A stretch of 54,001 nucleotides of DNA, counting the filler, from Catajapyx aquilonaris (Eukaryota), in the NCBI GenBank assembly GCA_000934665.2. It is 2 parts of 2 records of this genome, joined end to end, with 100 filler letters (N's around TTAATTAATTAA, not from the genome) between each part and the next. Parts side by side here need not be neighbours in the genome. Positions count along the whole stretch, not along the records: positions 27,006 to 54,001 come from JYFJ02005140.1; 1 more part is not named here. One strand, written 5' to 3'. Shown piece by piece: positions 26,906-51,989 of the stretch. The position numbers were made by a program, and so were the translations under genes. How positions within the stretch are numbered: position 1 is the stretch's first letter; each line of letters begins with the position of its first letter. The notes under the pieces were generated by a model. That model searched no databases and was not told where the DNA came from. It saw nothing but the letters and a program-made list of their open reading frames with translations.

Positions 26906-27005
26906 NNNNNNNNNNNNNNNNNNNNNNNNNNNNNNNNNNNNNNNNNNNNTTAATTAATTAANNNNNNNNNNNNNNNNNNNNNNNNNNNNNNNNNNNNNNN
27001 NNNNN
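26906..27005. other. Artificial contig joint (N44-TTAATTAATTAA-N44)
   Basis: Exactly 100 bp, symmetric, with a six-frame stop linker at 26950-26961. Confidence 0.95.
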
Positions 27006-27515: not shown

Positions 27516-28423
27516 CAGGGGTTGGACATAATAATAGGGCCCCCTGCAAAAAGCGGTTGAAATTTCGCGTCTGTTTTATTCGAAAACTGGAAAGGTTACA
27601 AAGATGACGTTTACCTGGATTGGAAGCTCTGTCGATGTACTATATCGATATAGTACATTTGTCAAGTTATGCAGAGGAGGCAAAAATCACAAGAGGTGGA
27701 GAGAAACAAAAAACGAACGATATCCCCAGACCCCATTGTTGACCCACCCTTTTCATTTGAAAACGAAAACAGTTACAGATATTGACTTTACTGGGTTTTG
27801 AAGCTCTATCGATGTCACTTTGTGCGGTATAGAGATGGACCCAAATTACCAACAGGGGAAGGGGGGAAAAAATAGAAACGACACCCCCCCCCCCCCNCCC
27901 CCCCCCATCCCCGGCACTGCTTGAATGCAAACAATGGAAAATTTTCGTCCCACTGCTAGTTAATGCTAACCTAGCAGTACCAGTGCCTAATATGGTACTG
28001 GTAAGGTAACTACGAGTATAGCAGTGGGACTAAAATTGGACCCAAATTTACAGTACATTATTTTGTCCAACCTCTTCTCAGATTTAGAGCCGGGGAAATG
28101 GGGTGTCGTTTCTATTCCCCGCTGCCCCTGTCGATAATTCTGGTCCTTCTCTATACGACCACACAAAGTGACATCGATAGACCTTCAAAACCCAGTAAAG
28201 TTCATATCTGTAACTGCTTTCGTTTTCAAATGAAAAGGGTGGGACACTGTTGTCAAACATGGGGCATGGGGGGTATCGTTTGTCTTTTGTTTCTCTTCCC
28301 TTGACAAATGTACATCGGACAGAGCTTCAAAACTAGGTAAAAGTCATATTTCTAACTTTTCTAGTTTTCGAATAAAACAGACGCTTTTCGCAGGGGGCCC
28401 TATTATTCTGTCCACAACCCCTG
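27516..28423. mobile_element. Long-TIR Tc1/mariner-type non-autonomous element (908 bp, TA TSD)
   Basis: TA|CAGGGGTTGGACATAATAATAGGGCCCCCTGC ... GCAGGGGGCCCTATTATTCTGTCCACAACCCCTG|TA; arms align for about 350 bp; the mirrored ORFs 27667 (-) and 28098 (+) reflect this. Confidence 0.85.
27940..28037. mobile_element. Small hairpin MITE in the centre of 27516-28423, related to 35493-35745
   Basis: AATTTTCGTCCCACTGCTA ... TAGCAGTGGGACTAAAATT. Confidence 0.6.
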
Positions 28424-29264: not shown

Positions 29265-29638
29265 GGGGAGGTGCGGTGACCGAGATGGTATAACGTCTCG
29301 GCTTGCTGAGTGAAAGGTCCCAGGTTCAATCCCCACCTGGGAGCTACCTTTCGCCTGCGTTGGGAGGGTCTCTGACCTGTACCTTGGAGGTGTCTGGCAA
29401 GTGGAAACCTAACCTCCTGGGGAACAGCACACATGACCCATAGCTAAGACATTGCACCTTGCACCCATGTTCCCTCCCCAACAATCCCTATCCTTTCCCA
29501 ATGTCCCTGTTTCCTGGCACTGGAGAATGAAGCTGGAAAAATAATAGAACACTGATGGTGGTGTGCCACGCTCCTATAGATCCCGTAAGGGACATCACGG
29601 GGCTCTTGACGGGGTAAATAAAATAAAATAAATGAATA
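29265..29638 (+). mobile_element. tRNA-derived SINE, family B
   Basis: A-box-like GGTGACCGAGATGG, B box GGTTCAATCCC, (TAAAA)n tail; TSD AATACGTCCA[A/G]C at 29253-29264 and 29639-29650. Confidence 0.85.
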
Positions 29639-30003
29639 AATACGTCCAGCAATAATGCATATTTTATTTCCTTATTATGTCATTAGGTATTAATTGCACA
29701 TTTGCGTATGTGACTGAGCCGCGGCAACATATGAATGCAAAAAGGTTCAGGATTGTACCAGTGAAAGTTAAGTAGGCCTCATCATCAGTTTTCGCTCATT
29801 TTACGACCAGTTTTTTTTTACTTAGCCGCCTTTGATCTGAGACCCCTCATTTGATTAGAATGTTAATGCTTTTTGAACTGAAGTTCCATTAGCGTTGCTG
29901 TTCCTTCATATTGGTCTGTTATTACAGGGGCAAAAGCTATCTGCATTTGTGCTTCGTAAGACGTTCTGGATGCGAGGCCATCAATAAGAATGGAGCAGCA
30001 GCC

Positions 30004-33000
30004 ATGAAGGGGGTTGCAGATGAAGCCCCCAAGACAACTACTCCGTTGTCAGCCACCGTTGCTGTTGCGACAGCAGCATTAGGAACTGTAGCTACAGCAT
30101 CGACAGTTGCCAGTGCGACTCAACAGCCCCCTCCAAGTCCAACATACCAACGGGTCCGTACCTACCCTGGGAACAGGCTGGGTAGCACCACTACACATGC
30201 ATCATCAACAACGTCAGCACTAATGCAGCAGGGAAGTGTTTCTGCAACTTCGCATAGTGTAGCAACCCTTGCCAACCAACAGCATGCCTTGCATCAGCAA
30301 CAGGCCAGGCACAAGGTTGCTACTGCTGCTGTTGCAGCTGCTGCATCTGCAACACCTACCACACCAGCCAACACAGGCAATGGCAGCAATGTAAGCAGCA
30401 CCAGCCAGCAGCAACAGTTCCAACACTTGAAAGAGGTTGCAGTATCGTATTTGAACGAGGTCAAATACAAGTTTGGCAGCCAACCACAGGTGTATGCGGA
30501 CTTTTTGGACATTATGAGACAGTTCAAGTCACAGTCCATTAATACACTAGGGGTTATTACCCATGTCTCAAGCCTCTTTAGAGGACATCCTGAGTTGATT
30601 GTTGGCCTCAACAGGTTCCTGCCACCTGGTTACAAGATAGAAGTGCAGCCTGGTGAACAGGTGTCAGTCAGCATGCCTGGTCAGACCACAATGGTGCACA
30701 TTCCAGCAGGGGCCACACTGACCAACTACACCCAGCTGACCACTTTGGCTCCAGTTGCTGCTGCCACCCCACCAGCACCAGTTGATGTAACAGTCAAATC
30801 CACGGCTCACCCTGTACACAACAATGTTCCTGTTGTAACCCCTGTTGCAATACCACCAGCTGCAGCAGCACCCCCTCCTGTGTTTGCAACAGCTCAACCT
30901 GTGGTGATGGCAACAGTACCACCACCTGCCCGTTCAGTGCCACCACCACCACCGCCACCTCCACCAGCTACAATTTCACAAGGCCGACCTGTTGAATTCA
31001 ACCATGCCATCAACTACATTAACAAAATCAAAAACCGGTTTCAGGGGCAGCTAGACAAGTACAAGCAGTTTCTCGAGATACTCCACACATACCATAAGGA
31101 GCAGCGCAATCTGAAGGAAGGTGCATCTGCAATTGCAGCTCCAGGAAAGCATCTGACAGAGGCAGAAGTGTACTCACAGGTTGCCAAGTTGTTTGAAAAT
31201 CAGGAAGATTTACTGCAGGAATTTGGCCAGTTCTTGCCAGATGCCACAAGCCATCAGGCATTTGCCGGAAAGAGTGTCAACAATGATCACGCTTCCATTG
31301 TGAAAAAGCCAGTGGTTACTGTTGCAAAACCACCAGTTGTTACCACTGTAGCTACTTCCATGCCTAAGTTTGGACCCACTAAGAGACCAGGATCCGCAGC
31401 AGTCATATTATCACAGGGACCTGCTATGAAAAATCCAAGGATGACCTCAACAGAAGTGTCAATGGCTGAATCTGGCTCGTTAATTGATGACACCTTTGAT
31501 AAGGTACATCGTGCATTCAAGTCTGCAGAGGTGTATGAGGATTTTCAGAGGTGTTTGGTGCTCTACAAAGAAGAGATTATGTCATGCCCACAATTGGTAC
31601 AACTGGTGACTCCTTTTCTGGGCAAATTTCCAGAGCTGTTTAAGTGGTTGAAGGACTCCCTGGGTTACCACAGTGATGGCATCCTGACATTTGATCCAAT
31701 ACCTGCTGCAGTCCCTAAGAATGAACAACCTGCTGGTGATCTTTCTATGGAGATTGACTACTCCACATGTAAGCGCCTTGGCGCCAGCTACTGTGCTTTG
31801 CCAAAAAGCTACATTCAACCCAAGTGTTCGGGCCGTACCAGCGTTTGCAAAGAGGTACTCAATGACACTTGGGTTTCCTTCCCGGCATGGTCTGAGGATC
31901 CCACTTCAGTGAGTTCTCATAAGACGCAGTATGAAGCTTACGTATATCAATGTGAAGGTGAAAGATTTGAGCTGGATATTGTCATTGAGACTAATGCAGC
32001 AGCTCTTCGCTCCCTGGAGGCAGTGCAGAAGAAGATGTCACGTATGCCTGCAGAGGAGGCTGCTCGGTTCCGACTTGATGATTGTCTTGGAGGCACCTCA
32101 CCAACTGTGAACCAGCGTGCCATACGTCGTATCTATGGTGATAAAGCCCCTGACATTATTGATGGACTAAAGAAGATTCCATCTGTTGCAGTTCCGATTG
32201 TCTTGCGGCGCCTAAAGGCCAAGGAGAAGGAGTGGCGTGAAGCGCAAAAGGGATTCAACAAGGTGTGGCATGTGCAGAATGAGAAGTACTATCTGAAGTC
32301 ACTTGATCATCAAGGGATAAACTTCAAGCAGAATGACGTGAAGGCCCTACAGAGCGAGAGCCTGTTAAATGAAGTAGAGGCATTGTACAATGAAAGACAT
32401 GAACAGCCTGAGGAAGGTGGGGAAGTGCCACAAGGTCCTCATCTTGTGTTGCATTATCGAGGCAAGAGTGTGCTTGATGATGCTGCCAACCTTCTCATTC
32501 ATCATGTGAAGTGGCAGACAGAAATACACAAGGGAGACAAGCAGAAAATCAAACGCCTGCTGCGACAGTTTGTGCCAGATATGTTCTTTTATCCACGCCA
32601 GGAACTCAGTGAAGATGAACGCGATGACGACGATGACAAGGAAAATGAGGCCAAGGATGAGCTTGACAGGCGGAGGCGATTTCGGTATGCTCCAATTCGG
32701 GACACCCCACCAACAGATGAGAGCTACACATTGTTGATGGGTAACAACAACTGGTACCTCTTGCTTCGCCTCCATCACATATTATGTGAGAGGCTGACAC
32801 GCATGTACGAACGTGCACTCCAGATAGCATCAGAAGAGGCTCATGAGCGTAAGGACCGACGTGAATCAACTGCTGTTGCTTTGCGATTGAAGCCCAAGAG
32901 TGAAATACATGTTGAAGACTACTATCCTGCATTTCTTGACATGGTAAAAAATGTACTTGATGGAAACATGGAAGCTAATGCTTACGAAGACACATTACGT

Positions 33001-33522
33001 GAGATGTTTGGCATCCATGCATACATTGCCTTCACCTTAGACAAAGTTGTTGGAAATGCTGTCCGCCAACTTCAGCACATTGTCACTGATGAGACGTGTT
33101 TGAGATGCATGGATGCATTCTTACAAGGACGGGGTGGTAGTGAGGCAGCATACCAACGTCGTGCTGAGCAGATGCTGGCTGAAGAAAACTGCTTTCGCAT
33201 TGCAGTATACAACCGTGACTGTCGCATGACGATGGAGCTATTGAGCACAGAAGTTGAGGAACCAGAACCAGTTGGTAAGGTTTCAAAATGGTCTTTGTAT
33301 GTTGAACGCTTCATAATGATTAATGACACTTTTCCACATGACTTGAAGGAAATGATGATGCCCAAGCCAGTATTTTTGCCACGCAACCTGCACTCTCGGG
33401 GTGCTGCAACAAAAGCGGAGGACTCTGAAAATGCATCCAAGGCAGCTGAGGGGGGGGGGGGGGGGGGGGGGNAGTTTTTGAGCACAACTATATCCACTCT
33501 TACCCTAAGAAATGCAAGATAG
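30004..33522 (+). CDS. Sin3A: Paired amphipathic helix protein Sin3A-like corepressor; intronless, diverged copy (probable retrogene); C-terminus uncertain
   Basis: Uninterrupted ORF (open from 29911, TTG; first in-frame ATG gccATGaag at 30004). PAH1 (SYLNEVKYKF..FLDIM..FKSQSI..FLPPGY), PAH2 (PVEFNHAINYINKIKNRF..EFGQFLPD), PAH3 (FLGKFPELF), HDAC-interaction region (CKRLGASY..CSGRT..VLNDTWVSFP..ERFELD..YYLKSLDHQGINFKQND) and C-terminal region (YEDTLREMFGIHAYIAFTLDK..PVFLPRN). Last residues cross a G22+N run. Confidence 0.93.
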   Translation: MKGVADEAPKTTTPLSATVAVATAALGTVATASTVASATQQPPPSPTYQRVRTYPGNRLGSTTTHASSTTSALMQQGSVSATSHSVATLANQQHALHQQQARHKVATAAVAAAASATPTTPANTGNGSNVSSTSQQQQFQHLKEVAVSYLNEVKYKFGSQPQVYADFLDIMRQFKSQSINTLGVITHVSSLFRGHPELIVGLNRFLPPGYKIEVQPGEQVSVSMPGQTTMVHIPAGATLTNYTQLTTLAPVAAATPPAPVDVTVKSTAHPVHNNVPVVTPVAIPPAAAAPPPVFATAQPVVMATVPPPARSVPPPPPPPPPATISQGRPVEFNHAINYINKIKNRFQGQLDKYKQFLEILHTYHKEQRNLKEGASAIAAPGKHLTEAEVYSQVAKLFENQEDLLQEFGQFLPDATSHQAFAGKSVNNDHASIVKKPVVTVAKPPVVTTVATSMPKFGPTKRPGSAAVILSQGPAMKNPRMTSTEVSMAESGSLIDDTFDKVHRAFKSAEVYEDFQRCLVLYKEEIMSCPQLVQLVTPFLGKFPELFKWLKDSLGYHSDGILTFDPIPAAVPKNEQPAGDLSMEIDYSTCKRLGASYCALPKSYIQPKCSGRTSVCKEVLNDTWVSFPAWSEDPTSVSSHKTQYEAYVYQCEGERFELDIVIETNAAALRSLEAVQKKMSRMPAEEAARFRLDDCLGGTSPTVNQRAIRRIYGDKAPDIIDGLKKIPSVAVPIVLRRLKAKEKEWREAQKGFNKVWHVQNEKYYLKSLDHQGINFKQNDVKALQSESLLNEVEALYNERHEQPEEGGEVPQGPHLVLHYRGKSVLDDAANLLIHHVKWQTEIHKGDKQKIKRLLRQFVPDMFFYPRQELSEDERDDDDDKENEAKDELDRRRRFRYAPIRDTPPTDESYTLLMGNNNWYLLLRLHHILCERLTRMYERALQIASEEAHERKDRRESTAVALRLKPKSEIHVEDYYPAFLDMVKNVLDGNMEANAYEDTLREMFGIHAYIAFTLDKVVGNAVRQLQHIVTDETCLRCMDAFLQGRGGSEAAYQRRAEQMLAEENCFRIAVYNRDCRMTMELLSTEVEEPEPVGKVSKWSLYVERFIMINDTFPHDLKEMMMPKPVFLPRNLHSRGAATKAEDSENASKAAEGGGGGGGXFLSTTISTLTLRNAR

Positions 33523-33759
33523 TTGGCCCAAGTAGAGTTGGACCAGGTTTGGAAAGGAGAAAAGAAGGGCTGGCCTTGATTGGGAATTTCAATATATTAT
33601 GACCACCCTTTGCAAGTGAAAGGGTTGAATGTAAAACACATGAATCTCCACTTGAAGTAATTTAGAAAAAAAAGTGTAGTCTTGCAATGGTAGGACATTG
33701 TAAATTTTTATTTATACGGAAAGTCAAAGATACCATTCGGTGAAGCTTATTTTCATTCA

Positions 33760-34908
33760 GGGCCGATTTCTCGAACAGTGGTTCAAATGTAAACAAGGTT
33801 CAAATCCGGTTTGAACCCAGTTCAGAGAAATTTCCATTTCTCGAGGCAAAAGTAGTAAACCCTGGATACGGTTTAAACTCGATTCACATCTGACGGTCCG
33901 ATTGCCGGCCGTTATCGGAAATAAACCGGGTTTGGAATGCCGGGAACAACAATGAAATGCGTCATTTTTTGACTAGTTGCCGACGTTACTCCGCAAAATG
34001 AGTTTTTATGGCACTTTTCGGAGGCCAAAAAATTCCCCCTGTGAACCATAGATAGTGCAAATCTTTGTCTTTCTAATGATGTATTTGAAACTTAGAAATC
34101 GCAACTATGTGTAATCATAATTAAGTTAATTGCACACCTCAGTTATCTCGGCCGTTTCTCATCCGAATTACTTCGCGAATGTATCGACGGCAAGCCAGAA
34201 ATGTGCGTGATAAAATTACATTGTGTTCTATTACACTAAAATTTTTAAAAGTATTGTTTTAGTAAGTTTAATAGACAAGTACTCAGCCCGATTTCTGGCG
34301 GGAATAGACGGCGATACTTTTAAATACGTTTAAAATTTTTAGTGTAGCACTATGTAATTTTATCACGCACATTTCTGGATTTCCGTCGGTACATTCGCGA
34401 AGTAATTCGGATTATAAGCGGCCGAGATAACAGATGTGTGTAATTAACTTAATGATGATTACAGAAATGGCGATTTCCGAGTTTCAAATATATCATTAGA
34501 AAGACAAAGATTTGCACTATCCAGGGTCCACAGCGTGAATTTTTTGGCCTCCGAGAAGTGTCATAAAAATTTCATTTTGCGGCGTAACGTCGGCAACTAG
34601 TCAAAAAATGTCACTTTCAAATGCTCTGTCCCTGTCCCTCACTCCACCGTCTAGACTTGCTGACTAGAGTTTGTTTACAAGCCGGTCAAGACTCGCGCTG
34701 AAGCTCAGACCGGTTCGGGGAACTGGGGACGACGCGACATGTGGCAACGGCGCAATTCTAACTGAGGCTTGTCGTTCACATAGTAACCGAGGGTTTGTTT
34801 ACGCTCGAGAAATGCTCACACTCGGAAGGGGAGTTTAAACTGCATCCAGCGTGTAGACGCAAACTCACAGTTCAAACTGACTTGAACCACTGTTCGAGAA
34901 ACCGGCCC
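33760..34908. mobile_element. PIF/Harbinger-like non-autonomous element (TSD TCA) with a nested foldback
   Basis: TCA|GGGCCGATTTCTCGAACAGTGGTTCAA ... TTGAACCACTGTTCGAGAAACCGGCCC|TCA. Confidence 0.85.
33954..34618. mobile_element. Foldback element with ~300-bp TIRs, nested in 33760-34908
   Basis: CATTTTTTGACTAGTTGCCGACGTTAC ... GTAACGTCGGCAACTAGTCAAAAAATG; an independent half-copy lies at 47719-47968. Confidence 0.8.
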
Positions 34909-35492
34909 TCAGAAGTTGAGAGGAAACCTAACATCAGATTATTTTAATTTTTAATATTTTGCTTTCTACCTACTATGTTTGTTATGTCCCCCCTCCCCCC
35001 CCCAGTTATAAATGATTTGTTTCTTGTACCAGTGTTTATGCAGCGACTTTTTGTTTTTAAACCTGTTTAAAGTGGTTGTTAATGTGGACCCAATGTAGTT
35101 ATCATTTAGTTTCTTGAAAGAGATAGGTCGGTCCAACCTGTAAGGAAAGTACCGGAAATAAATTGTGGCCATTAGGGAACACACTTTTTTTTATTGTGAA
35201 TGATCAATTCTCAGGGCCCTGTTCCATCCACCCCTGTTGTCCATCTACCCACGCCGCGCCGGGTTCTAATCATGGTGACCTCATAACAGGGGAGTAGGAG
35301 CGGNNNNNNNNNGGGGGGGGGGGGGGGGGGGGGGGGGGACGTGGTAAACAAACCGAACATCGAGAGAACTATCTGACATCTCGTTTAATTTACAGACTCC
35401 TATAGTCAACGGAAATCTGCCAAACTCAAATTAGTGCCTATTAGTATAGTGTGATGTTCATGTGATATCAGATCGTTCTTTTTTGTTGACAC

Positions 35493-39232: not shown

Positions 39233-40006
39233 TAACGGGCCCAGTGCAGTGGTTGAAGACCAACTATTTGCAGGGGAGAAAATTCACCAACCATTTAGCG
39301 CAAATACTGCCTAGCAACACCACAATAATACTCTCTCAATGTTAATCAATATAATCATCATTAACGGGCCCAGTGCTAGGGTTGAAGACCAACTATTTGC
39401 AGGGGAGGAAATTCACCAACTATCTAGCGCAAATACTAGCTGCCTAGTAGCACCACAATAATACTCTCTCAATGTTAATCAATATAATCATCATTAACGG
39501 GCCCAGTGCTAGGGTTGAAGACCAACTATTTGCAGGGGAGAAAATTCACCAACTATCTAGCGCAAATACTAGCTGCCTAGTAGCACCANCATCATTAACG
39601 GGCCCAGTGCAGTGGTTGAAGACCAACTATTTGCAGGGGAGGAAATTCACCAACCATCTAGCGCAAATACTGCCTAGTAACACCACAATAATACTCTCTC
39701 AATGTTAATCAATATAATCATCATTAACGGGCCCAGTGCAGTGGTTGAAGACCAACTATTTGCAGGGGAGAAAATTCACCAACTATCTAGCGCAAATACT
39801 GCCTAGTAACACCACAATAATACTCTCTCAATGTTAATCAATATAATCATCATTAACGGGCCCAGTGCAGTGGTTGAAGACCAACTATTTGCAGGGGAGA
39901 AAATTCACCAACCATCTAGCGCAAATACTGCCTAGCAACACCACAATAATACTCCCTCAATGTTAATCAATATAATCAACATTAACTGGCCCAGTGCAGT
40001 GGTTGA
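39233..40006. repeat. Tandem satellite, 129-bp unit, about 6 copies
   Basis: Unit starts TAACGGGCCCAGTG at 39233, 39362, 39495, 39596 (after an N), 39725, 39854, with a partial at 39983. Confidence 0.95.
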
Positions 40007-40013
40007 GAGCAAG

Positions 40014-40558
40014 GGCATTGCACTTCTTTTATTCACTTTTTGTGAGTACTTTCCTGCACTCTGTAAAAACCAACACTGAAGCCATGATTTTTTTAAAAAA
40101 ACTAGTGCTACTATGTGCAGGGGAGCAAGTTCACCAAACACCTAGCTCAAATACTGACTAGAGCAACATGCAAACCGCTTTTTCATATTGGATTATTGAT
40201 AATTATACTTTTTATATACTCATTACCAATATGTAATGGCATTGCACTTCTTTTATTCACTTTTTGTGAGCACTTTCCTGCACTCTGTAAAAACCAACAC
40301 TGAAGCCATGATTTTTTTTTTAAAAACTAGTGCTACTATGTGCAGGGGAGCAAGTTCACCAAACACCTAGCTCAAATACTGACTAGAGCAACATGCAAAC
40401 CGCTTTTTCATATTGGATTATTGATAATTATACTTTTTATATACTCATTACCAATATGTAATGGCATTGCACTTCTTTTATTCACTTTTTGTGAGCACTT
40501 TCCTGCACTCTGTAAAAACCAACACTGAAGCCAGGATTTTTTTTAAAAAAAACCTAGT
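40014..40558. repeat. Tandem repeat, 225-bp unit, about 2.4 copies
   Basis: Identical translated ORFs at 40115 and 40340; GGCATTGCACTTCTTTTATTCAC recurs three times. Confidence 0.93.
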
Positions 40559-40979: not shown

Positions 40980-41062
40980 ACCTGGATTCACTGAAAACAT
41001 TGGATTGCAACATTTTCCATTCCCCATGAGCACGTTTCTAATGTTGCCCCCCTTTCATTTAT

Positions 41063-44000
41063 GGGTGGTTCCATTTCAGATCAGCCAGTGAGTGAAAAAA
41101 GGTGTTAGGTTAGAGTCATCGATTTTTTTGAAAAAAATATATGTGAAACCCACATCCAATTGAACTCCTATGGAGCAATCACTTTTACTAAATTAAATTT
41201 AGTTATCGAGATATTAATATTTCTTTGAAGGGGTACCAAAATCAAAATCACGCGAAGACGCACTTTTTCCCGCTTTTTCCATTGCTTTCAATGAGGATAT
41301 CTCGGGAACTGTTCTGAGAACCAACATGAAATTTTAAACTCATGCTTTTGGAATAACACACTGTCATTTCATTCATAAATTTACCTCATTTTATGGTACA
41401 GTCACCTGCAAAAAAAATCACCAATCTTGCAAATTTTGGTCAAAATGCGCATATTTCGCAATTTATTACGCCGTTATGGTAAGCGTGACGGTTGTGCTGA
41501 TTATATTTTGGGATATACTCGGTGACCCCCTCCAGGTTATAAAATAAAACCTTCGTTAGCTCCGCGTGTAGTTGAGATATGCGGGGTGAAATTATGGCAA
41601 CAAGCGAAAACATACATATTTCAAAAATTATTTTCTCAAAAACGCCATTTTAAATATTTTATTTTTATTTTTTATTTTACAAGGACGGACATGTTATAAA
41701 ATGAACTGGTGTCAAAACCCGGTATATATGTTTTTTATACGTGAGATACAAATTTTTGTAAAGTCACAACTTTCGTAATTGTGCTACAAAATGCCCAATT
41801 CAAATAAATATTTTCTCGAAGAAGCCATTTTATTTATTTTTTTAATTTTTAATTTTGCAAAGACGGACATGTTATAATATCAAGTAGTGTCAAAACCCGG
41901 TGTATATATCTTATACGTGGGATATATATTTTTGTAAAGTGACAACTTTATGCTACAATATGCACACTTCAAATAAATATTTTCTCGAAGAAGCCATTTT
42001 GAAAATTTAATCATTATTTTTTGTATAACAAAGTAGCATGAGTTCGATTATAAAATTATATCAAAATTCGGTATATATTTGTATTCAGTGAGATACGAAT
42101 TTTTTTCACAGGGGTGATTTTTGATTCTATGCAACAACATGCACATTTCAAAAATTAATATATGGAAAACGCCATTTTTAATATGCAATATTCTTTTATA
42201 TTTAATAAAGGAAAGACCGGTTCTGTCATAAAATAATATAAAAACCTGGTATAGATTCTTGATGATACGAATTTATGAAAAGTGGTATTTTTGCTTTCAT
42301 TTAGTGTCTTTCAACATCCTTGCAGTTAGCTACTTCTAAAGTCATATTCGATATAAAAAATAAATGTCAACAACTAATCTGGAAACCTTCCATAATGGTC
42401 AACAGAGGGCAAGGGGGAATTAAATGTAAAATGGACCCACTTTCGTGACCATCTTCATGAGTCATGGAATTCATGAAATTATACATCTATATAAAACTGT
42501 AAAACATCGTGAAACCCTCCCCATTATTGTATCAGACTATGCATACATGGGACAGTGTGTGTTGGTTACACCATCGGGAAATTAATATGTATACATATTT
42601 GCTGATGATGTCGATGGTGTCGAGACACCTGGAATGTATTTTTATGGTGGTGGTGGGGGACCTTTCCATAGCCATAGCTATAGCTATATGGAAAGGTCGA
42701 AGTCCCCCCCGCCCACCACCATAAAAATACATTCCAGGTGTCTCGACTACATCGACACCATCAGCAAATATGTATACATATTAATTTGCCGATGGTGTAA
42801 CCAACACACACTGTCCCATGTATGCATAGTCTGATACAATAATGGGGAGGGTTTCACGATGTTTTACAGTTTTATATAGATGTATAATTTCATGCATTCC
42901 ATAACTCATGAAGATGGTCACGAAAGTGGGTCCATTTTACATTTAATTCCATCTTGCCCTCTGTTGACCATTATGGAAGGTTTCCAGATTAGTTGTTGAC
43001 ATTTATTTTTTATGTCGAATATGACTTTAACTGCAAGGATGTTGAAAGACACTAAACGAAAGCAAAAATACCACTTTTCATAAATTCGTATCATCAAGAA
43101 TCTATACCAGGTTTTTATATTATTTTATGACAGAACCGGTCTTTCCTTTATTAAATATAAAAGAATATTGCATATTAAAAATGGCGTTTTCCATATATTA
43201 ATTTTTGAAATGTGCATGTTGTTGCATAGAATCAAAAATCACCCCTGTGAAAAAAATTCGTATCTCACTGAATACAAATATATACCGAATTTTGATATAA
43301 TTTTATAATCGAACTCATGCTACTTTGTTATACAGAAAATAACGATTAAATTTTCAAAATGGCTTCTTCGAGAAAATATTTATTTGAAGTGTGCATATTG
43401 TAGCATAAAGCTATCACTGTACAAAAAATTATATCTCACGTATAAGAAATATACACCGGGTTTTGACACTACTTAATTTTATAACATGTCCGTCTTTGTA
43501 AAATAAAAAATAAAAAATAAAAAATTTAAAATGGCTTCTTCGACAAAATATTTATTTGAATTGTGCATTTTGTAGCACAATTACGAAAGTTGTGACTTTA
43601 CAAAAATTTGTATCTCACGTATAAAAAACATATACCGGGTTTTGACACCAGTTCATTTTATAACATGTCCGTCCTTGTAAAATAAAAAATTAAAATGAAA
43701 TATTAAAAATGGCTTTTTTGAGAAAATAATGTTTGAAATATGCATGTTTTCACTTGTTGCCATATTTTCACCCCGCATATCTCAACTACACGCGGAGCTA
43801 ACGAAGGTTTTATTTTATAACCTGGAGGGGGTCACCGAGTATATCCCAAAATATAATCAGCACAACCGTCACGCTTACCATAACGGCGTAATAAATTGCG
43901 AAATATGCGCATTTTGACCAAAATATGCAAGATTGGTGATTTTTTTGCAGGTGAGTGTACCATAAAATGAGGTAAATTTATGCATTAAATGACAGTGTGT

Positions 44001-44299
44001 TATTCCAAAAGCATGAGTTTAAAATTTCATGTTGGTTCTCAGAACAGTTCCCGAGATATAGGCCTACTCATTGAAAGCAATGGAAAAAGCGGGAAAAAGT
44101 GCGTCTTCGCGTGATTGTGATTTTGGTACCCCTTGAAAGAAATATTAATATCTCGATAACTAAATTTAATCTGGTAAAACTGATTGCTCCGTATGAGTTC
44201 AATTGGATGTGGGTTTCACATAATTTTTTTTCAAAAAAATCAATGACTATGACCTGACACCTTTTTTCACTCACTGGCGGATCTGAAATGGAACCACCC
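41063..44299. mobile_element. ~3.24-kb spacer-less palindromic foldback element
   Basis: GGGTGGTTCCATTTCAGATC ... GATCTGAAATGGAACCACCC; ~1.62-kb arms align up to the centre ATAGCTA|TAGCTAT (42680/42681); ~175-bp subrepeats in each arm; no coding capacity seen. Confidence 0.9.
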
Positions 44300-45186
44300 A
44301 ATATGAATATTAATATATTCTTATATAACGGGCCCAGTGGTTGAAGACCAACTATTTGCAGGTCTGCAACTGTAGGCAGCGATCAGATGTCAATTTAGGG
44401 CAATTAAGGACACAGTCCGACAGGCAGGGCTGATCCTAAGTATTTGTTTCAATAACAACATGTTAAATGCTAATTATTATATCAGTACGTAGATGGAACA
44501 TGCCTGTACAAATATACATGTATCTACGATGATCCTCGTCTATTTCCACAGACCTCTCAACAGGTTTGTTCCTCTCGACCAGTGAAAGAGGAAGTCATGA
44601 TGGATGTTGAGCAACACAATCCGACAGGCAGGGGTCCAATAGCAATCCACAATATTAATATTAATAATAATATATTCTAATATTAATATTAGTTGCATAA
44701 TGGTGTGTTATGCCTGATGGTGTGGTATGACTGATGGTATCGAAGATGTGTCTTTCCAAGAAGCCGCAAACCATGAGATTGACCATCAAGGGTTAAGATG
44801 ATGTCAGACAGTACACAGTATACAGTTCAACACATATGGTATAGTTGTTGCTGTTATACATGGATGAAACAGTGGGATTATCTTTCTGCTGGGAGAAAAC
44901 ATTTTGAACAAAATAATTGTAATGGTTCATCCCATCATCCGCTATAAACTTTTTAGGGGGGGGGGGAACACAATGGCATGATATTTGCCTTATTTATATT
45001 GTTCCAGTTATCATTTTTATTTTCTAAATAATGTCCAGGTTATATTGTAGAGTTTCTTGACTGGCATAGCCTACTAGGAAATAATATTATTGGTGCGACC
45101 ATTATGAGACGTCGATCACAACACTGATGACTCTCACTTGATAATTACAAGCAAATGTTCTCCGGATGACTAACCATCAGGAACTG

Positions 45187-47223
45187 AGATTATATAGGGC
45201 CTATATTTAAAACCGGCCACAGAGTAAATTCATATCACACGACCAACATTATAATAAGCTTGAATGACTGTGAACATGAATTATTGTGCGACTATGCCAC
45301 CCATTATGGCAAGTGTCGATGACAACTAAGATAATTACCATCAATTGATGACTCACCTCTAGAGTATACTGTTATTGGTGTGAAGATGCCACCCATCATG
45401 TAAAATCATGTAGATGGTAACTGACAACTCTTACAAGATTATTGCAACAAACTGACGTCTGGGTGACTTACCATGAGGATATTAAGCACTCTTATTACAG
45501 AAAGCAAGGAAATAATTACTGCAATGATGGGACTGTAACACTATACATCTGTCCCACACAAAATTATTATATTTCCAAACATGAATTATGTTATTGGTGT
45601 GACGATGCCACCCATTACATGAAGTCGGATTGACTAAAGAAGTGAAAACTCACGACCACTGACGACTGTCACAAGATAATTACGGTAAGCTTATAAGCAA
45701 AAAATATTGTCTGGATGACTTACCAGCAGGATATGCCCTCTTTTTTAAAGAAAGCTAGTTGTATTCTACATTAACTGTACAAAACAACCGAAGACTCATA
45801 ACATGTTGTCTGCATCATGATTACCATCAGGGTATATATGATTGTATTATATGCCTTCATATTAAGGATATAAGGAAAGCTACGAATAAACCATTAGTGT
45901 AATGTATTGTAGAACTATAGTACTGTCATCCTGTCGCAGAGCAGATTTGTACTGTATAAGTTTATACCAAAGTATGTAGAAATTTCGATAAGATGTAGCG
46001 CGATGTAGCTACTCGTACAGTACTGTAGTGGAAAGGTACGGCCCTAAGTATGAAAAGAAGCATTATCATACTCTACAGGTTGCGTCGTAGTGACCACTTC
46101 AAACTCTTCCGCTCTGGAACCCCATTGGTTCCAAAAGTCACCCAAGAACCCTGCCTGGCCGCCATTGGCCGCGATGTGGGTCGCTATGCTACCACTGGCG
46201 GCCGCAATCTTTGTGCTCTCAATGACGTCATTTTGGAACAATATTATTGAATTTCAATCCCTCGGCCCGGAATCGTTCGAAATGTGTCCACCATCCTGAG
46301 GTTATTTAGAACCGAATTCTCGCCCGTATTTTGACCATTTTGTAGTCTAAATTAATTTTAAAACAAAATATTAAAATTTTGTCAGGCGACTTTCAGAACA
46401 CAGTGGTTCCGTCGTCGGTCCGTCCGAACAATAATGATCCCAGACAGGTACCGCCCCCTGGCAGTCGATCGAGGCTTGCTCGGCCAGATTCGAACGTTCA
46501 AAATCCAAATTTTAAGTTGCTTGACACTTTAAAAAACGGCTGCATAATGAGAGCTCATACCTTCATCATAAATTCCGTGCCCCAAGATTCATCCGTGGTG
46601 AAATATGCACGCAAATCCGTCACTTCCAACAAGAGTAACGAGAAGTATCTGGCCCTTGTGCCCGTTTTGTACCGGTACCATTGAAGTACACCGGTACGCG
46701 TAACATTGGACACCCTTCCCCTCCCCCCACTCGTCCCCAATCTGACCTTCTTTGCCTTACGGTCTGGTAGTTGTGGACGAGACAACGGGGTTGGCATTGT
46801 TTGCGTGCCTGTTTGACGAGATGCCATCATCTCCTCTTTCTCGTCTTCGTGGGTCCATCTCGTCCTCCCGGGAGACATTACATACTTGATCCTTCTGCTT
46901 GATGTACAGAGTAAAAAAAGCAGGGAGCCGATGATGTGGACAAAACGCCGAACTGACCAACTCACACCCGCCGACAGACACGTCCATACAGCGAGCGCGT
47001 TCCAAATGGAATGGGCTAGCAACCATAGCAACCGCTTCTGTGGCCTGGGTCAACAGGGGGTCAACGACCGCTCCAATGGTGCCAACATCGCGTTCGAACA
47101 TTATTGCAATAACATTTCGGCCCGAATTCGAATCCAAATGCGATTTAAATGCTACTAAATAGCAAAAAAATATATTATAATTCTATGATATATTTAAACC
47201 TATTTAAACCTATTTATAGCTTC
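45187..47223 (+). repeat. ~2-kb duplicated segment, copy 1
   Basis: Collinear with 48603-50538; paralogous short ORFs 46050/49404, 46379/49713, 46886/50106. Confidence 0.88.
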
Positions 47224-47718
47224 TGCCCTCTGTTCGATTAAGATACGCCCGTAGATGCGAATACTATAGGCCTACACAAGAACTTAACGAAAATATACGA
47301 AAAATTAAATAGTGGATATTTCCTTAGAAGTAGGGCCTATTCATTGTAGGCCTGCTCAAAGGTGGGCACAGTTCTCTAACAGCTGATCAGCTAACTACAA
47401 AAAATTGGATTTGCTAAATAGCTATTGCTAAATGGCTAGAAAATTAGTTAAAGCTAATGCTAACTGCTAACAGCTAACTTCCCTTTTATTTTGCTCCATG
47501 ACCCTTAAAAAACAGACCTAAGCTGATAAAGCCTACTATCCGTTTATTTAATATAGCGCCCTGTGTTTGACTCTAAACAACTCCCAGGCAAATTATGCAA
47601 AAAAATAATAGTATGCATCGTGAGAAAGCTTCTTTAAATCCACGTTACATAATTATATACGTGAGTTCAGTGTTTTCCAATCGTCAGTCTCTAATCTTTT
47701 ATCGTAGAAAGAAGGCGG

Positions 47719-47968
47719 AAAAGTGTCATTTTTTGACTAGTTGCCGATGTTACACCGCAAAGTGAATTTTTTATGACACTTTGAGGAGGCCAAAAAATCC
47801 CCTTGTGAACCCTGGATAGTGCACATCTTTGTCTATCTAATGATATTATTTGAAACATTGAGATCGCCATTTCTGTAATCATAATTAAGTTAATTCCACG
47901 CCTCTGTTATCTCGGATGTTTTTAATCCGAATTACTTCGCGAATGTATCGACGGCAAGCCAGAAATGT
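47719..47968 (+). mobile_element. Single arm of the 33954-34618 foldback family
   Basis: AAAGTGTCATTTTTTGACTAGTTGCCGATGTTAC ... GAATGTATCGACGGCAAGCCAGAAATGT. Confidence 0.8.
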
Positions 47969-48517
47969 TCATAATGAACTGTCCCTGACCAAATTAGATT
48001 ATTCACCAACATGAACTATGTTATCCGTGGTACGATGCCACTCATGATATGGAGATGGATTGTTCATAACATCATGAGGCAAGAACATATGAGACAAAAA
48101 TGACCACTGGCAACGACTCTCTCAAGATAATCACGGTACAAGGAAATATTGTCTGGACAACTACTATCAGAATAATATGCCCTCTTTTTCCAAAATGATG
48201 GTGAAATATAGTTAGTGTCATTGCGGGATAATATTCATAATGAACTGTCCCTGACCAAATTATATTATTCACCAACATGAACTTTGTTATCGGTGGGACC
48301 ATGCCACTCATGATATGGCTCCAGATGGATTGTCCATGAGGCAGGAACATATTATGAGACAAAAATGACCACTGGCAACGACTCTCTCAAGATAATCTCT
48401 GTACAAGCAAATATTGTCTGGATGACAACTATCAGGTTAATATGCCCTCATTTTAAAGTTAGCTAGTTAAAAATAATTAGTGTCATTGCGGGATAATATT
48501 CATAATGAACTGTCCCT
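47968..48517. repeat. Tandem ~266-bp units of an old satellite
   Basis: TTCATAATGAACTGTCCCT at 47968, 48234 and 48499; more diverged relatives at about 45070-45750. Confidence 0.85.
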
Positions 48518-48602: not shown

Positions 48603-50538
48603 GAGATTATTGGGCCTCTATTTACAACTGGATACAGAGTAAATTCATATCACACGACCAACATAATTATAATAAGCTTGAATGACTGTGAACATGAATT
48701 ATTGTGCAAATATGCCACCCATCATGGCAAAGTGTCGATGACAACTAAGATACGCGTACTTATCACCAAATGATGGCTCACCTTTAGAGTATTATTCTGT
48801 CAAATTGCAAGAGAACTTGGAAAAATAATCATGTTGTAATTATTGTGTGACTATAATTCTATACACCCATAGCACTGAAGCTTGATTACAGGTTTACAAC
48901 GTGCCAGAGGTTCACATCAGATGAGCATAATTATATTATGCTTATATAGGGCTGTGAACGTTAATTACTGAGCAAATTCTAGCAAATGTCCAACACATCT
49001 CATCAATGTAGAAGACACCGAAGATTCTCACATGATGTTGTCTGCATGTTTTACCATCAGGGTATTATGCCCTCATTAAAGAAAGCTAGGAAAAATCCTT
49101 AGTGTAATGTATTGTGGAACTCTAATACTATGAAACTGTCCCACAGCAGATATATACTGTATAAGTTTATACCAAGTATGTAGAAATCTCGGTAAGAAGA
49201 TGTAGCGCGATGTAGCTACTCGTATAGTACTGTACATTACTGTAAAGAGGTACTAGCCTAAGCGAGCCTAAGGGCCGGTTTCACCGAGCTCAGTATATGA
49301 TAAAACCAGGGTATTTCTCAAAATCCCTATCTATTTGTATGGATTTTCCTAAAGAAACCTGGTTTTATCATACACCAAGCTCGGTGAAACCGGCCCTAAG
49401 TGTATGAAAAGAAGCATTATCGTACTCTACAGCTTGCGTTGTAATGACCTCTTCAAACTCTTCCGCTCTGGAACCCAATTGGTTCCAAAAGTCACCCCAG
49501 AACACTGTCTGACTGCCATTGGTCGCGATCTGGGTCGCCAGGGCCGCCATCTTTGTCCTCTCAATGACGTCATTTTGGAACAATATTATTGACTTTCATT
49601 CCCTGGGCCCGGGATCGTTCGAAATGTGTCCACCATCCTGAGATTACTTAGAACCGAATTCTCGCCCAATTTTTGACCATTTTGTAATTAGTTGTAGAAC
49701 AAAATATTACAATTGCGTCAGGCGACTTATTTCAGAACACAGTGGTTCCGAACAATAATGATCCCAGACAGGTATATGCCCCCTGGCAGGCGATCGAGGC
49801 TTGCTCGGCCAGATTCGAACGTTCAAAATCCAAATTTTAAGTTGCTTGACACTTTAAAAAACGGCTGCATAATGAGAGCTCATATACCTTCATCATAAAT
49901 TCCGCGCCACAAGATTCATCCGTGGTGAAAGATGCACGCAAATCCGTCACTTCTAACAAGAGTAACGAGACGTATCTGGCCCTTATTGTGCCGAATTACG
50001 GTCGTTTTGTACCATTGAAGTACACCGGTACACTCAACATTCGACACACCCCCCCCCCCCCCCCNNNNCCCCCCCCCCCCCCACTCCTCCCCAATCTGAC
50101 CTTCTTTGCCTTACGGCCTGTTTGACGAGATGCCATCATCTCTTCTTTCTCGCCTTCGTGGGTCCATCTCGTCCTCCCGGGAGACATGCGATACATGCTT
50201 GATCCTTCTGCTTGATGTACACAGTAAAAAAAGCAGGGAGCCGATGATGTGGATAAAACGCAGAACTGACCAACTCACACCCGCCGACAGACACGTCCAT
50301 ACAGCGAGCGCGTTCCAAATGGAATGGGCTAGCAACCATAGCAACCGCTTTTGTGGCCGGGGTCAACAGGAGGTCAACGACCGCTCCAATGGTGCCACCA
50401 TTGCGTTTGAACATTATTGCAATAACATTTCGGCTCCGAATTCGAATCCAAATGCGATTTAAATGCTACTAAATAGCAAAAAATATATATTATAATTCTA
50501 TGATATATTTAAACCGATATAAACCTATTTATAGCTTC
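48603..50538 (+). repeat. ~2-kb duplicated segment, copy 2
   Basis: See 45187-47223; this copy carries an extra MITE. Confidence 0.88.
49272..49396. mobile_element. Tourist/Harbinger-like MITE (125 bp, TAA TSD)
   Basis: TAA|GGGCCGGTTTCACCGAGCT ... AGCTCGGTGAAACCGGCCC|TAA; absent from the paralogous site near 46040. Confidence 0.9.
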
Positions 50539-51542: not shown

Positions 51543-51989
51543 CCTTTTGGGCGACATAGTACGTTTGTGCCATGGAGGCAGTGGCGGATCGAGAAAATTT
51601 TCGGGGGGGGGNACAGGCGTCTTTGGGCCCACATTTGTAGCTGTTAGTGGTGCATGCAGAAATTACTCCGGGGGGGGGGGAGGGGGGATTTTTTCCAGTT
51701 CAAGGTCAAGGCAAAACGAAAAAGAACCCATATATAGAACAGTGCAATTTTTACAGTGCAAAAATTGCACTGTTCTTTTCGATGCAGCCTAGTCTCGTCA
51801 CCAGCAGGATGTAGTAGGTAGTCAAATGCGACCGAGGTGCCCATCGCACGCATGCCAATGCTAATGATAGCCTAATATTCCGTACTGCCAACCGTCCAGT
51901 ATGGCCTGTACTCTATAGGCCAGGATTTCTCAAAATGTGGCAAACTGGCAACACACCATACCAGTGCGCTGCCTCTACGTAGGCGGCAG

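What the first reader, a model, noticed from the sequence alone, without database searches (positions are those of the whole stretch)
30004..33522. Intron-free, still-open but diverged Sin3A copy alone in a transposon desert
Seen: a 3.5-kb uninterrupted ORF covering PAH1 to the C-terminal region, with no other gene in the window. Known: animal Sin3A genes are normally multi-exon and very conserved. Inference: a retrogene or young processed pseudogene. It carries many substitutions at usually fixed positions (recalled consensus VEDALSYLDQVK becomes EVAVSYLNEVK, GFNTFLPP becomes GLNRFLPP, CEDERFE becomes CEGERFE, LKKNP becomes LKKIP, HHVKRQTG becomes HHVKWQTE) yet has no stop or frameshift, which hints at a functional lineage-specific paralog of an HDAC scaffold.
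Basis: partly seen in the sequence, partly recalled or inferred. Interest (0 to 1): 0.75.

Follow-up and report, generated by a model that had tools for sequence, protein, structure and literature searches.

The report
Intronless, decaying-yet-open extra Sin3 copy
An arthropod-type genome piece carries an intron-free copy of the Sin3 gene-silencing scaffold that has changed many normally fixed residues and lost its tail yet still reads without a break, so it is probably a retroposed spare copy that is either weakly kept or only recently dead.

Summary
An uninterrupted frame (ATG 30004, 1156 codons) encodes PAH1-3, the HDAC-interaction domain and most of Sin3a_C.

- **3' end.** The frame stops being Sin3 at a poly-G tract with an N (33450-33472). 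The last 150-210 residues of Sin3 are nowhere in the window.
- **No introns.** It crosses every recurrent intron site found in multi-exon Sin3 loci from metagenomes; 42 of 80 loci show introns.
- **Abnormal divergence.** It differs at 49 of 378 near-invariant columns (median of 121 proteins 0.8%). It differs at 21 of 185 columns that are invariant in all 120 other proteins. Twelve uninterrupted Sin3 frames used as controls reach only 0.5-3%. The excess is nearly flat across conservation classes and rich in CpG transitions, as under relaxed constraint.
- **Signs of residual selection.** Neutral simulation expects 4-7 stops, with P(open) 0.0007-0.016. Decay is uneven: PAH2, HID and Sin3a_C are spared, PAH1 and PAH3 are hit (p=0.0016).

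My reading is a retroposed secondary Sin3 copy under relaxed, domain-uneven constraint. I put about 50% on it still being coding and about 33% on a plain pseudogene. No genome is held, so parent gene, dN/dS and expression could not be tested. The scan holds no earlier Sin3 note.

The parts
29893..30003 (+). In-frame open leader upstream of the ATG. It holds an AG (29926-29927) behind a pyrimidine run, which could be a 3' splice site, and a 5-codon upstream ORF (29990-30007) whose stop overlaps the ATG.
   Evidence: Read directly from the sequence. No function was tested.
30004..33449 (+). Uninterrupted Sin3 coding frame, 1148 codons up to the G tract.
   Evidence: All tblastn matches of five homologues lie in frame +1 between 30433 and 33435. 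CpG observed/expected is 0.40 here against 0.82-0.85 in the flanks.
30421..30648 (+). PAH1 (residues ~140-215, limits set by me from the alignment). Decayed: 12 of 62 near-invariant positions changed, plus a one-residue deletion in the first helix.
   Evidence: The 119 background proteins depart at 0.23% per column here.
31009..31263 (+). PAH2 (residues ~336-420). Best preserved: 3 of 52 near-invariant positions changed.
   Evidence: PAH2 against PAH1+PAH3, Fisher p=0.009.
31483..31671 (+). PAH3 (residues ~494-556). Most decayed: 8 of 24 near-invariant positions changed, plus a one-residue deletion.
31759..32403 (+). HDAC-interaction region (residues ~586-800; Pfam Sin3_corepress core 590-685). 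13 of 126 near-invariant positions changed.
   Evidence: Matches PDB 2n2h chain B (Sin3a) over residues 646-766.
32737..33438 (+). Sin3a_C domain (residues 912-1145). It is cut short at profile position 244 of 281 and carries a ~15-residue in-frame deletion. 4 of 63 near-invariant positions changed.
33450..33472 (+). G22 tract followed by one N. This is where Sin3 homology ends. The tract's true length, and so the downstream frame, is unknown.
   Evidence: Similar G/C tracts with N lie at 27884-27906, 35304-35338, 50049-50082 and 51603-51612. A sibling repeat copy has an imperfect C-rich run at the same spot.
33473..33522 (+). Non-Sin3 tail up to the first stop in the frame as assembled. By my reading of the sequence, the other two frames also stop, one within 3 codons and one after about 44.
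   Evidence: Read from the sequence. tblastn with ten C-terminal queries found no Sin3 match beyond 33465.
34003..34569 (.). Palindromic MITE-like element about 530 bp downstream of the G tract, with a partial copy at 47718-47978. It is context only, not part of the gene.
   Evidence: inverted repeats I10 and I14, direct repeats D14 and D17.

Best explanation
This is a secondary copy of the arthropod Sin3 HDAC-scaffold gene. It was most likely made by reverse transcription of a spliced mRNA, and its 3' end is lost at, or hidden by, a G tract. I put about 85% on this part.

Since its origin the copy has evolved under strongly relaxed constraint. About 11% of otherwise invariant residues are replaced, almost regardless of how conserved the column is, and many replacements are CpG transitions.

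I commit, at about 50%, to the reading that it is still translated, or was until very recently. Selection would then act mainly against truncation, and on the PAH2 and HDAC-interaction core. PAH1 and PAH3 have been released from constraint.

If made, the protein would be a Sin3 lacking its C-terminal 150-210 residues. It could still dock PAH2 clients and the deacetylase module but not the full partner set, so it would act as a variant scaffold or a competitor.

Shown: the anatomy, the lack of introns, the decay pattern, and the improbability of an open frame. Inferred: retroposition, the existence of a parent gene, translation, and which partners bind.
For: **Family and anatomy.**

**Intron loss.** 42 of 80 metagenome Sin3 loci show introns. 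21 site clusters seen in at least 2 loci fall inside the window frame; six are seen in 6-29 loci. None interrupts the window frame.

**Relaxed constraint.**
- 49 of 378 near-invariant columns are changed, against a median of 0.8% over 121 proteins.
- 21 of 185 strictly invariant columns are changed, against 0-7 in 119 others, median 0 over all 121.
- Twelve uninterrupted control frames change 0.5-3.0%, against 11.1% for the window on the same columns.
- By conservation class the window runs 13/16/26/54/77%. An ordinary insect such as the mayfly runs 3/10/30/43/77%.
- Strictly invariant columns change at 11.4% and columns with 1-2 departures at 9.7%. Strictly invariant against all other near-invariant columns gives Fisher p=0.44.
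- 44 of the 49 changes are single-step. Eight are Arg CGN to CAN.

**Residual selection.**
- There is no stop in 1148 codons, where simulation expects about 4-7. P(no stop) is 0.016-0.0007 for 7-11% residue change under four mutation models.
- Three deletions inside conserved blocks are all in frame.
- Decay is uneven between domains: chi-square p=0.0016. It runs against the background pattern, since PAH1 is the most conserved domain elsewhere.
- At Arg CpG codons there are 8 mild outcomes (His, Gln) against 1 harsh outcome (Trp), p=0.044.

**Possible sign of germline activity.** CpG depletion is confined to 30000-33600, and CpG decay continued after the copy arose. In insects methylation is described as largely restricted to transcribed genes (PMC7343188; I saw only the abstract start in the search listing).

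**Context.** Unchecked earlier notes report other retrocopies in this genome.
Against: **What could not be examined.** No parent gene could be looked for. As a result, the neutral distance is inferred from protein invariants only, and part of the 11% could belong to a fast host lineage.

**Ascertainment.** The frame was chosen because it is open. With many retrocopies per genome, a P near 0.01 is not decisive. The in-frame state of the deletions follows automatically from that choice.

**Weak filtering.** Replacements are only weakly milder than random: mean BLOSUM62 is -0.10 against -0.32 to -0.55 expected, P 0.04-0.2. The near-flat profile across conservation classes is what a dead gene gives.

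**Missing retrocopy marks.** There is no poly-A, no target-site duplication, and the 3' end is missing.

**Other caveats.**
- A conserved uninterrupted Sin3 frame exists in a 12-kb metagenome contig (L001). Lack of introns alone therefore does not prove retroposition.
- Low CpG could be inherited wholly from the parent mRNA.
Confidence: 0.5

Rival explanations
1. It is a plain processed pseudogene: a dead retrocopy drifting neutrally that has escaped stops and frameshifts by luck or relative youth.
For: - The change rate is nearly the same at strictly invariant columns (11.4%) and at columns with 1-2 departures (9.7%). Strictly invariant against all other near-invariant columns gives p=0.44.
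- Replacements are close to random in kind.
- There is a CpG-transition signature.
- There are deletions inside PAH1, PAH3 and Sin3a_C.
- The C-terminus, poly-A and target-site duplication are all missing.
- The frame was selected for being open.
- A broken fasciclin-3 retrocopy is reported in the same genome in an unchecked note.
Against: - P(no stop) is 0.0007-0.016 at the inferred divergence, before counting frameshifts.
- Decay differs between domains (p=0.0016), and PAH2 is spared among equally CpG-poor neighbours.
- Arg CpG outcomes are skewed towards mild replacements, 8 to 1 (p=0.044).
Confidence: 0.33
2. It is the genome's only Sin3 gene. The host lineage would have lost the coding introns and evolve fast, and the C-terminal exons would lie beyond the G tract, in a gap or outside the window.
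For: - Uninterrupted, conserved Sin3 frames exist elsewhere, for example L001 in a 12-kb contig.
- Unchecked earlier notes say this genome has several genes without coding introns.
- Drosophila Sin3A isoforms differ at the C-terminus through alternative splicing (PMC5902990, passages read).
- The window's branch length is 0.63; by my sum of the branch lengths, that is within the root-to-tip range of ordinary insect Sin3.
- A possible splice acceptor lies at 29926-29927.
Against: - 21 changes fall at columns invariant in 120 other bilaterian Sin3 proteins. Far more distant lineages with uninterrupted frames change at most 3% of them.
- PAH1, the most conserved domain elsewhere, is among the most damaged here.
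- There are deletions inside three conserved domains.
- No C-terminal exon lies in the 20 kb downstream.
- Sin3 is essential in the animals studied (recalled, not from a call).
Confidence: 0.1
3. It is an assembly artefact or foreign DNA: a cDNA-like or contaminant contig placed in a pseudo-scaffold, with errors inflating the divergence.
For: - The window holds an artificial-looking spacer, 44 N + TTAATTAATTAA + 44 N, at 26906-27005.
- It also holds several G/C homopolymers with N. The Sin3 segment lies between two of them, at 27897 and 33472.
- No near relative of the protein exists in 5.8 billion clusters.
Against: - 2.1 kb of ordinary non-coding DNA runs without an N into the frame.
- The changes are single-step substitutions with a biological spectrum, not random error, and the frame is kept.
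- A sibling repeat shows the homopolymer sits at a real C-rich run.
- The tree places the protein within Pancrustacea next to winged insects, in keeping with the arthropod nature reported for the genome in unchecked notes.
Confidence: 0.04

Closest known systems
Canonical arthropod Sin3A (for example P0003 Periplaneta americana; the Drosophila Sin3A gene)
   Same: It has the same domain order: PAH1, PAH2, PAH3, HDAC-interaction domain, Sin3a_C. It is colinear with homologues over window residues ~140-1128 and has the same start. Identity is 51-65% in long matches.
   Different: - It has no introns where canonical loci have 10 or more.
- It changes 13% of near-invariant positions, against a median of 0.8%.
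- It has three in-frame deletions in conserved blocks.
- It lacks the last 150-210 residues.
Animal retrocopies: processed pseudogenes and functional retrogenes
   Same: It is an intron-free copy of a multi-exon gene, standing alone, with relaxed constraint. Its long open frame is as in retrogenes. Reviews of the class turned up in search listings only (PMC5470649, PMC4772013).
   Different: It has no poly-A tract and no target-site duplication. It is cut at the 3' end rather than the usual 5' end. The parent gene has not been seen.
Natural Sin3 variants: Drosophila SIN3 187/190/220 C-terminal isoforms, the short mammalian SIN3B(293), and the vertebrate SIN3A/SIN3B paralogues (review PMC5902990, passages read)
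   Same: Sin3 proteins with altered or missing C-terminal parts, and extra Sin3 paralogues with distinct partner sets, exist and are not redundant.
   Different: Those arise by alternative splicing or by DNA or whole-genome duplication, and they keep the invariant residues. This one is a separate intron-free locus with near-random residue decay.
Other lineage-specific arthropod Sin3 duplicates: Schistocerca cancellata 'Sin3a-like' (P0020) and 'Sin3b-like' (P0119)
   Same: There are two Sin3 proteins in one insect, on different chromosome-size contigs, with one on a long branch of 0.51.
   Different: Both locust proteins keep the invariants; 16 of 386 and 10 of 387 are changed. Their gene structures were not examined.

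Membership tests
Sin3 co-repressor family | Three paired amphipathic helix (PAH) repeats | tested here: met
   Pfam PF02671, 3 stretches, E 8.4e-38. PDB PAH1, PAH2 and PAH3 chains match residues 144-209, 322-416 and 497-556.
Sin3 co-repressor family | HDAC-interaction domain (Sin3_corepress) | tested here: met
   PF08295, residues 590-685, full profile 1-98 of 98, E 8.9e-34.
Sin3 co-repressor family | Complete Sin3a_C domain and conserved C-terminal tail | tested here: not met
   PF16879 matches only profile positions 2-244 of 281. The last 150-210 residues of five homologues have no match in the window. There is a ~15-residue deletion inside the domain.
Sin3 co-repressor family | Retention of the family's invariant residues, as expected of a working orthologue | tested here: not met
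   49 of 378 near-invariant and 21 of 185 strictly invariant columns are changed. Controls change 0.5-3% of the strictly invariant columns.
Retrocopy (retrogene or processed pseudogene) | No introns at positions where the source gene family has them | tested here: met
   The frame crosses 21 recurrent intron sites (each seen in at least 2 loci) inferred from 42 intron-bearing loci out of 80. Some of those loci are near-duplicates of each other.
Retrocopy (retrogene or processed pseudogene) | 3' poly-A tract | tested here: not met
   There is no A or T run of 12 or more anywhere in the window. Homology ends at G22+N.
Retrocopy (retrogene or processed pseudogene) | Flanking target-site duplication | tested here: not met
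   Only one 9-mer is shared between 29300-30003 and 33440-34100, against 1.8 expected by chance. The true 3' end is unknown, so the test is weak.
Retrocopy (retrogene or processed pseudogene) | An intron-containing parent gene elsewhere in the same genome | not testable with these tools
   No genome is held. No near relative is in the protein collection.
Processed pseudogene (non-functional) | Disabling stops or frameshifts | tested here: not met
   There are 1148 codons without a stop, and the frame is colinear with homologues in frame +1 throughout. The only loss is at the 3' end.
Functional retrogene | Purifying selection (dN/dS below 1) and expression | tested here: inconclusive
   Indirect signs only: P(no stop) 0.0007-0.016, uneven decay between domains at p=0.0016, and the Arg CpG skew at p=0.044. 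dN/dS and RNA were not testable.

The most novel reading that the evidence does not exclude
The copy is a living, germline-methylated and therefore germline-transcribed Sin3 retrogene. Selection keeps its PAH2 and HDAC-docking core and forbids truncation, because a truncated scaffold would be a harmful decoy. PAH1, PAH3 and the C-terminal tail have been shed. The result would be a lineage-specific stripped-down deacetylase scaffold, or a built-in competitor of the canonical Sin3 complex.
Probability: 0.3. Interest if true: 0.55.

Novelty: new member of a known kind. Interest (0 to 1): 0.3.

Why it matters
Sin3 is a single-copy, highly conserved hub of histone deacetylase complexes in the insects studied. 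Drosophila has one gene (PMC5902990, passages read). An extra, stripped-down copy that is still translated would be a natural experiment showing which Sin3 modules can be lost. It would also be a possible tissue-specific modulator of repression.

If it is merely a slowly dying retrocopy, it is ordinary. Its only use would then be as a neutral yardstick for mutation spectra, for example CpG decay, in this genome.

Two literature searches found no paper on a Sin3 retrogene among the results listed. That says little, because most retrocopies are never described one by one.

Tried and rejected
- **Whole-genome search for a parent gene.** No genome is held, so the step was dropped.
- **Protein searches for a same-species or sister-species relative.** None of the three succeeded.
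  - Whole length: best long match 59% identity.
  - Shorter proteins over residues 560-1150: at most 77%, and only on the HID core.
  - The lineage-specific tail 1066-1150: 12 candidates, none scored.
- **Metagenome scan.** It gave 80 loci, none closer than 63% over long matches. They were useful only for intron positions and as controls.
- **Missing C-terminus.** tblastn with the last 230 residues of ten homologues at E up to 50 found only chance-level matches outside the frame.
- **Other features in the window.** No Rfam family and no tRNA. No Pfam family reached its cut-off in 127 other frames.
- **Target-site duplication.** None found.
- **Host identity.** The tree puts the protein as sister to all winged insects (support 96) on a long branch. 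An AU test weakly rejects a place inside Polyneoptera (p=0.029). Variable columns favour no taxon, 25-34% identity to all. The host is therefore not identified.
- **G>A excess as an editing signature.** 12 of 14 against 61.5% expected, p=0.05. This is too weak to claim.
- **Earlier findings.** There are no Sin3 notes by sequence, place or words.
Full report
**Observation.**
The + strand is open from 29893 to a TAG at 33520-33522. The ATG at 30004 aligns with the family's start codon. Positions 30004-33471 translate to 1156 residues without a stop (P0001).

Pfam finds three PAH repeats (E 8.4e-38) and the complete Sin3_corepress / HDAC-interaction domain (residues 590-685, E 8.9e-34). It also finds Sin3a_C (residues 912-1145, E 6e-59), but only profile positions 2-244 of 281. 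Five arthropod homologues match the window only in frame +1 between 30433 and 33435, colinearly.

**The 3' end.**
Homology stops at a run of 22 G followed by one N (33450-33472). The 16 codons that follow are unrelated to Sin3. By my reading of the sequence, all three frames stop within about 44 codons.

Homologues continue for 150-210 more residues: P0003 is matched to residue 1353 of 1544, P0020 to 1093 of 1268, P0002 to 1277 of 1427, P0012 to 1213 of 1379, and P0119 to 1257 of 1466. A permissive tblastn with the last 230 residues of ten homologues found nothing credible elsewhere in the window.

G/C homopolymers with an N inside or beside them also occur at 27884-27906, 35304-35338, 50049-50082 and 51603-51612. 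For one of them, a sibling repeat copy carries an imperfect C-rich run at the same place. The tracts therefore look like real, poorly resolved homopolymers rather than large gaps. Even so, the true 3' end of this gene is unresolved.

**Surroundings.**
- Of 130 other frames of at least 75 codons, 127 were scanned against Pfam and none reached a family cut-off. Three ATA-repeat frames were not scanned.
- There is no Rfam family and no tRNA.
- The window holds palindromic MITE-like elements, satellites and segmental repeats, but no transposon protein domain. 'Gene-poor and repeat-rich' is shown; 'transposon desert' is not.
- Positions 26906-27005 read 44 N, TTAATTAATTAA, 44 N. This looks like an artificial spacer between concatenated contigs, so only 27006 onward is safely contiguous with the gene.

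**Is the lack of introns unusual?**
A scan of metagenome contigs with an 11-protein alignment returned 80 Sin3 loci. Mapping the Periplaneta protein on them, 42 of 80 show at least one inferred intron. The sites recur at Periplaneta residues ~166 (29 loci), ~419 (8), ~604 (9), ~917 (6), ~1146 (6), ~1260 (6) and ~1464 (6). In all, 21 site clusters seen in at least two loci fall inside the part the window covers. Some of these loci are near-duplicates of one another.

The window frame runs through every one of those positions. One caveat: twelve loci carry long uninterrupted Sin3 frames. Most sit on contigs about as long as a transcript, but L001 lies in a 12-kb contig. An intron-free canonical Sin3 therefore exists in some organism.

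**Is it abnormally diverged?**
Yes. The evidence is as follows.
- In a leave-one-out count over 121 proteins, the window protein departs at 49 of 378 near-invariant columns (13.0%). The median is 0.8%. Only one other row is higher: P0059, at 82 of 374, which may be a faulty gene model.
- At columns invariant in all 120 others it departs at 21 of 185. The other rows, apart from P0059, show 0-7, and the median over all 121 is 0.
- The twelve uninterrupted control frames are more distant from insects overall (44-54% identity to Periplaneta). They change only 0.5-3.0% of strictly invariant columns, against 11.1% (23 of 208) for the window on the same column set.
- By conservation class the window reads 13/16/26/54/77% changed. 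A mayfly reads 3/10/30/43/77% and a whitefly 3/13/26/44/79%. The window thus looks like an ordinary insect Sin3 plus a roughly flat extra 10%.
- Within the near-invariant set, the rate is 11.4% at strictly invariant columns and 9.7% at columns with one or two departures. Strictly invariant against all other near-invariant columns gives Fisher p=0.44.
- 44 of the 49 changes need one nucleotide step. Ten of 30 invariant arginines are changed. Eight of those went CGN to CAN (five His, three Gln) and one went to TGG, which is the mark of CpG deamination.
- Replacements are only slightly milder than random single-base changes: mean BLOSUM62 is -0.10 against -0.32 to -0.55 expected, P 0.04-0.2.

This is the pattern of strongly relaxed constraint.

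**Is it simply dead?**
Several results say not simply.
- I mutated the frame at random under four spectra. When 7-11% of residues are changed, 4-7 stops are expected, and the frame stays open in 0.07-1.6% of runs. Frameshifts are not counted in that figure.
- The exact 95% interval for 21 of 185 is 7.2-16.8%.
- Decay is uneven across domains (chi-square p=0.0016):

| Domain | Near-invariant positions changed |
|---|---|
| PAH1 | 12 of 62 |
| PAH2 | 3 of 52 |
| PAH3 | 8 of 24 |
| HID | 13 of 126 |
| Sin3a_C | 4 of 63 |

- PAH2 against PAH1+PAH3 gives p=0.009. PAH2 lies in the same strongly CpG-depleted stretch as its neighbours. PAH1 is the most conserved domain in the other 119 proteins, at 0.23% departures per column.
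- At arginine CpG codons, the mild outcomes (His, Gln) outnumber the harsh ones (Cys, Trp) 8 to 1, p=0.044.

Against this, three points weigh.
- The frame was picked because it is open. A probability near 0.01 is weakened by the unknown number of retrocopies scanned, and the in-frame state of the three deletions seen inside conserved blocks follows from that choice.
- Without the parent gene, I cannot separate decay of the copy from divergence of the host lineage.
- The statistical hints other than the stop count are modest.

**CpG pattern.**
CpG observed/expected is 0.40 in the frame against 0.82-0.85 in the flanks. The depletion is confined to about 30000-33600 and is deepest in the 5' half. 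By my hand estimate, CpG transitions at invariant Arg codons ran about five times the non-CpG transition rate.

In insects, methylation is described as largely restricted to transcribed genes (PMC7343188; I saw only the abstract start in the search listing). Continued CpG decay in the copy would then hint at germline transcription. This is an inference. The low CpG level itself could be inherited from the parent mRNA.

**Retrocopy marks.**
The usual marks are missing.
- There is no A or T run of 12 or more in the window.
- There is no flanking direct repeat beyond chance: one 9-mer against 1.8 expected.
- The loss is at the 3' end, whereas 5' loss is the usual case (recalled, not from a call).

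Retroposition therefore rests on three things: the simultaneous absence of all ancient introns, the isolated position, and the relaxed constraint. Unchecked earlier notes of other retrocopies in this genome add context.

**Relatives and host.**
- No near relative exists in the protein collection or among the metagenome loci.
- A 60-row tree places the protein within Pancrustacea as sister to all winged insects (support 96), on an end branch of 0.63 against a median of 0.15.
- An AU test weakly rejects a place inside Polyneoptera (p=0.029). Long-branch effects apply to both results.

The host is not identified.

**Known comparisons.**
Drosophila has a single Sin3A gene whose isoforms differ at the C-terminus. 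Vertebrates have SIN3A and SIN3B, and a 293-residue SIN3B form lacks the HID (PMC5902990, passages read). Schistocerca cancellata has two Sin3 proteins on different large contigs, and both keep the invariants. Two literature searches showed no paper on a Sin3 retrogene among those listed: one search listed 15 of 20 papers and one search listed 12 of 424.

**Verdict.**
This is a real, intron-free, secondary Sin3 copy under relaxed and domain-uneven constraint, cut at its 3' end. It is most likely a retrocopy. Whether it is a weakly selected variant scaffold (about 50%) or a young pseudogene (about 33%) needs the parent gene, RNA data and sister species. It is a new member of a known kind, of modest interest.

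Noticed in passing
window 26906-27005: This stretch reads 44 N + TTAATTAATTAA + 44 N, exactly 100 bases. It looks like an artificial six-frame-stop spacer joining separate contigs, so the two sides may not be neighbours in the genome.
   Followed up: partly
window 27884-27906, 33450-33472, 35304-35338, 50049-50082, 51603-51612: Long G or C homopolymers with N inside or beside them occur five times in 54 kb. One has a sibling repeat copy with an imperfect C-rich run at the same site. They may be real expanded tracts or a polishing artefact.
   Followed up: partly
window 41062-44300: A large nested palindrome with arms 94-98% complementary, centred near 42683, in an AT-rich stretch of 32-35% GC.
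   Followed up: no
window 34003-34569 and 47718-47978: A palindromic MITE-like element just downstream of the Sin3 frame, with a partial second copy 13.7 kb away.
   Followed up: no
window 46048-47223 and 49402-50538: Two copies of a repeat of at least 1.2 kb, 3.3 kb apart, 91-99% identical in blocks. There are also satellites with 129-133-bp and 225-bp units at 39233-40537.
   Followed up: no
window 29926-30007: An AG behind a pyrimidine run at 29926-29927 is a possible 3' splice site 76 bases before the ATG. A 5-codon upstream ORF (29990-30007) has a stop that overlaps the Sin3 ATG.
   Followed up: no
locus L001 5812-9708: An uninterrupted 1299-codon Sin3 frame with only 1 of 210 strictly invariant positions changed, inside a 12-kb metagenome contig. 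A conserved intron-free Sin3 gene therefore exists in some organism.
   Followed up: partly
proteins P0020 and P0119 (Schistocerca cancellata): This locust has two Sin3 proteins on different chromosome-size contigs. They group together in the tree, and one sits on a long branch of 0.51. This is a lineage-specific Sin3 duplication in an insect.
   Followed up: no
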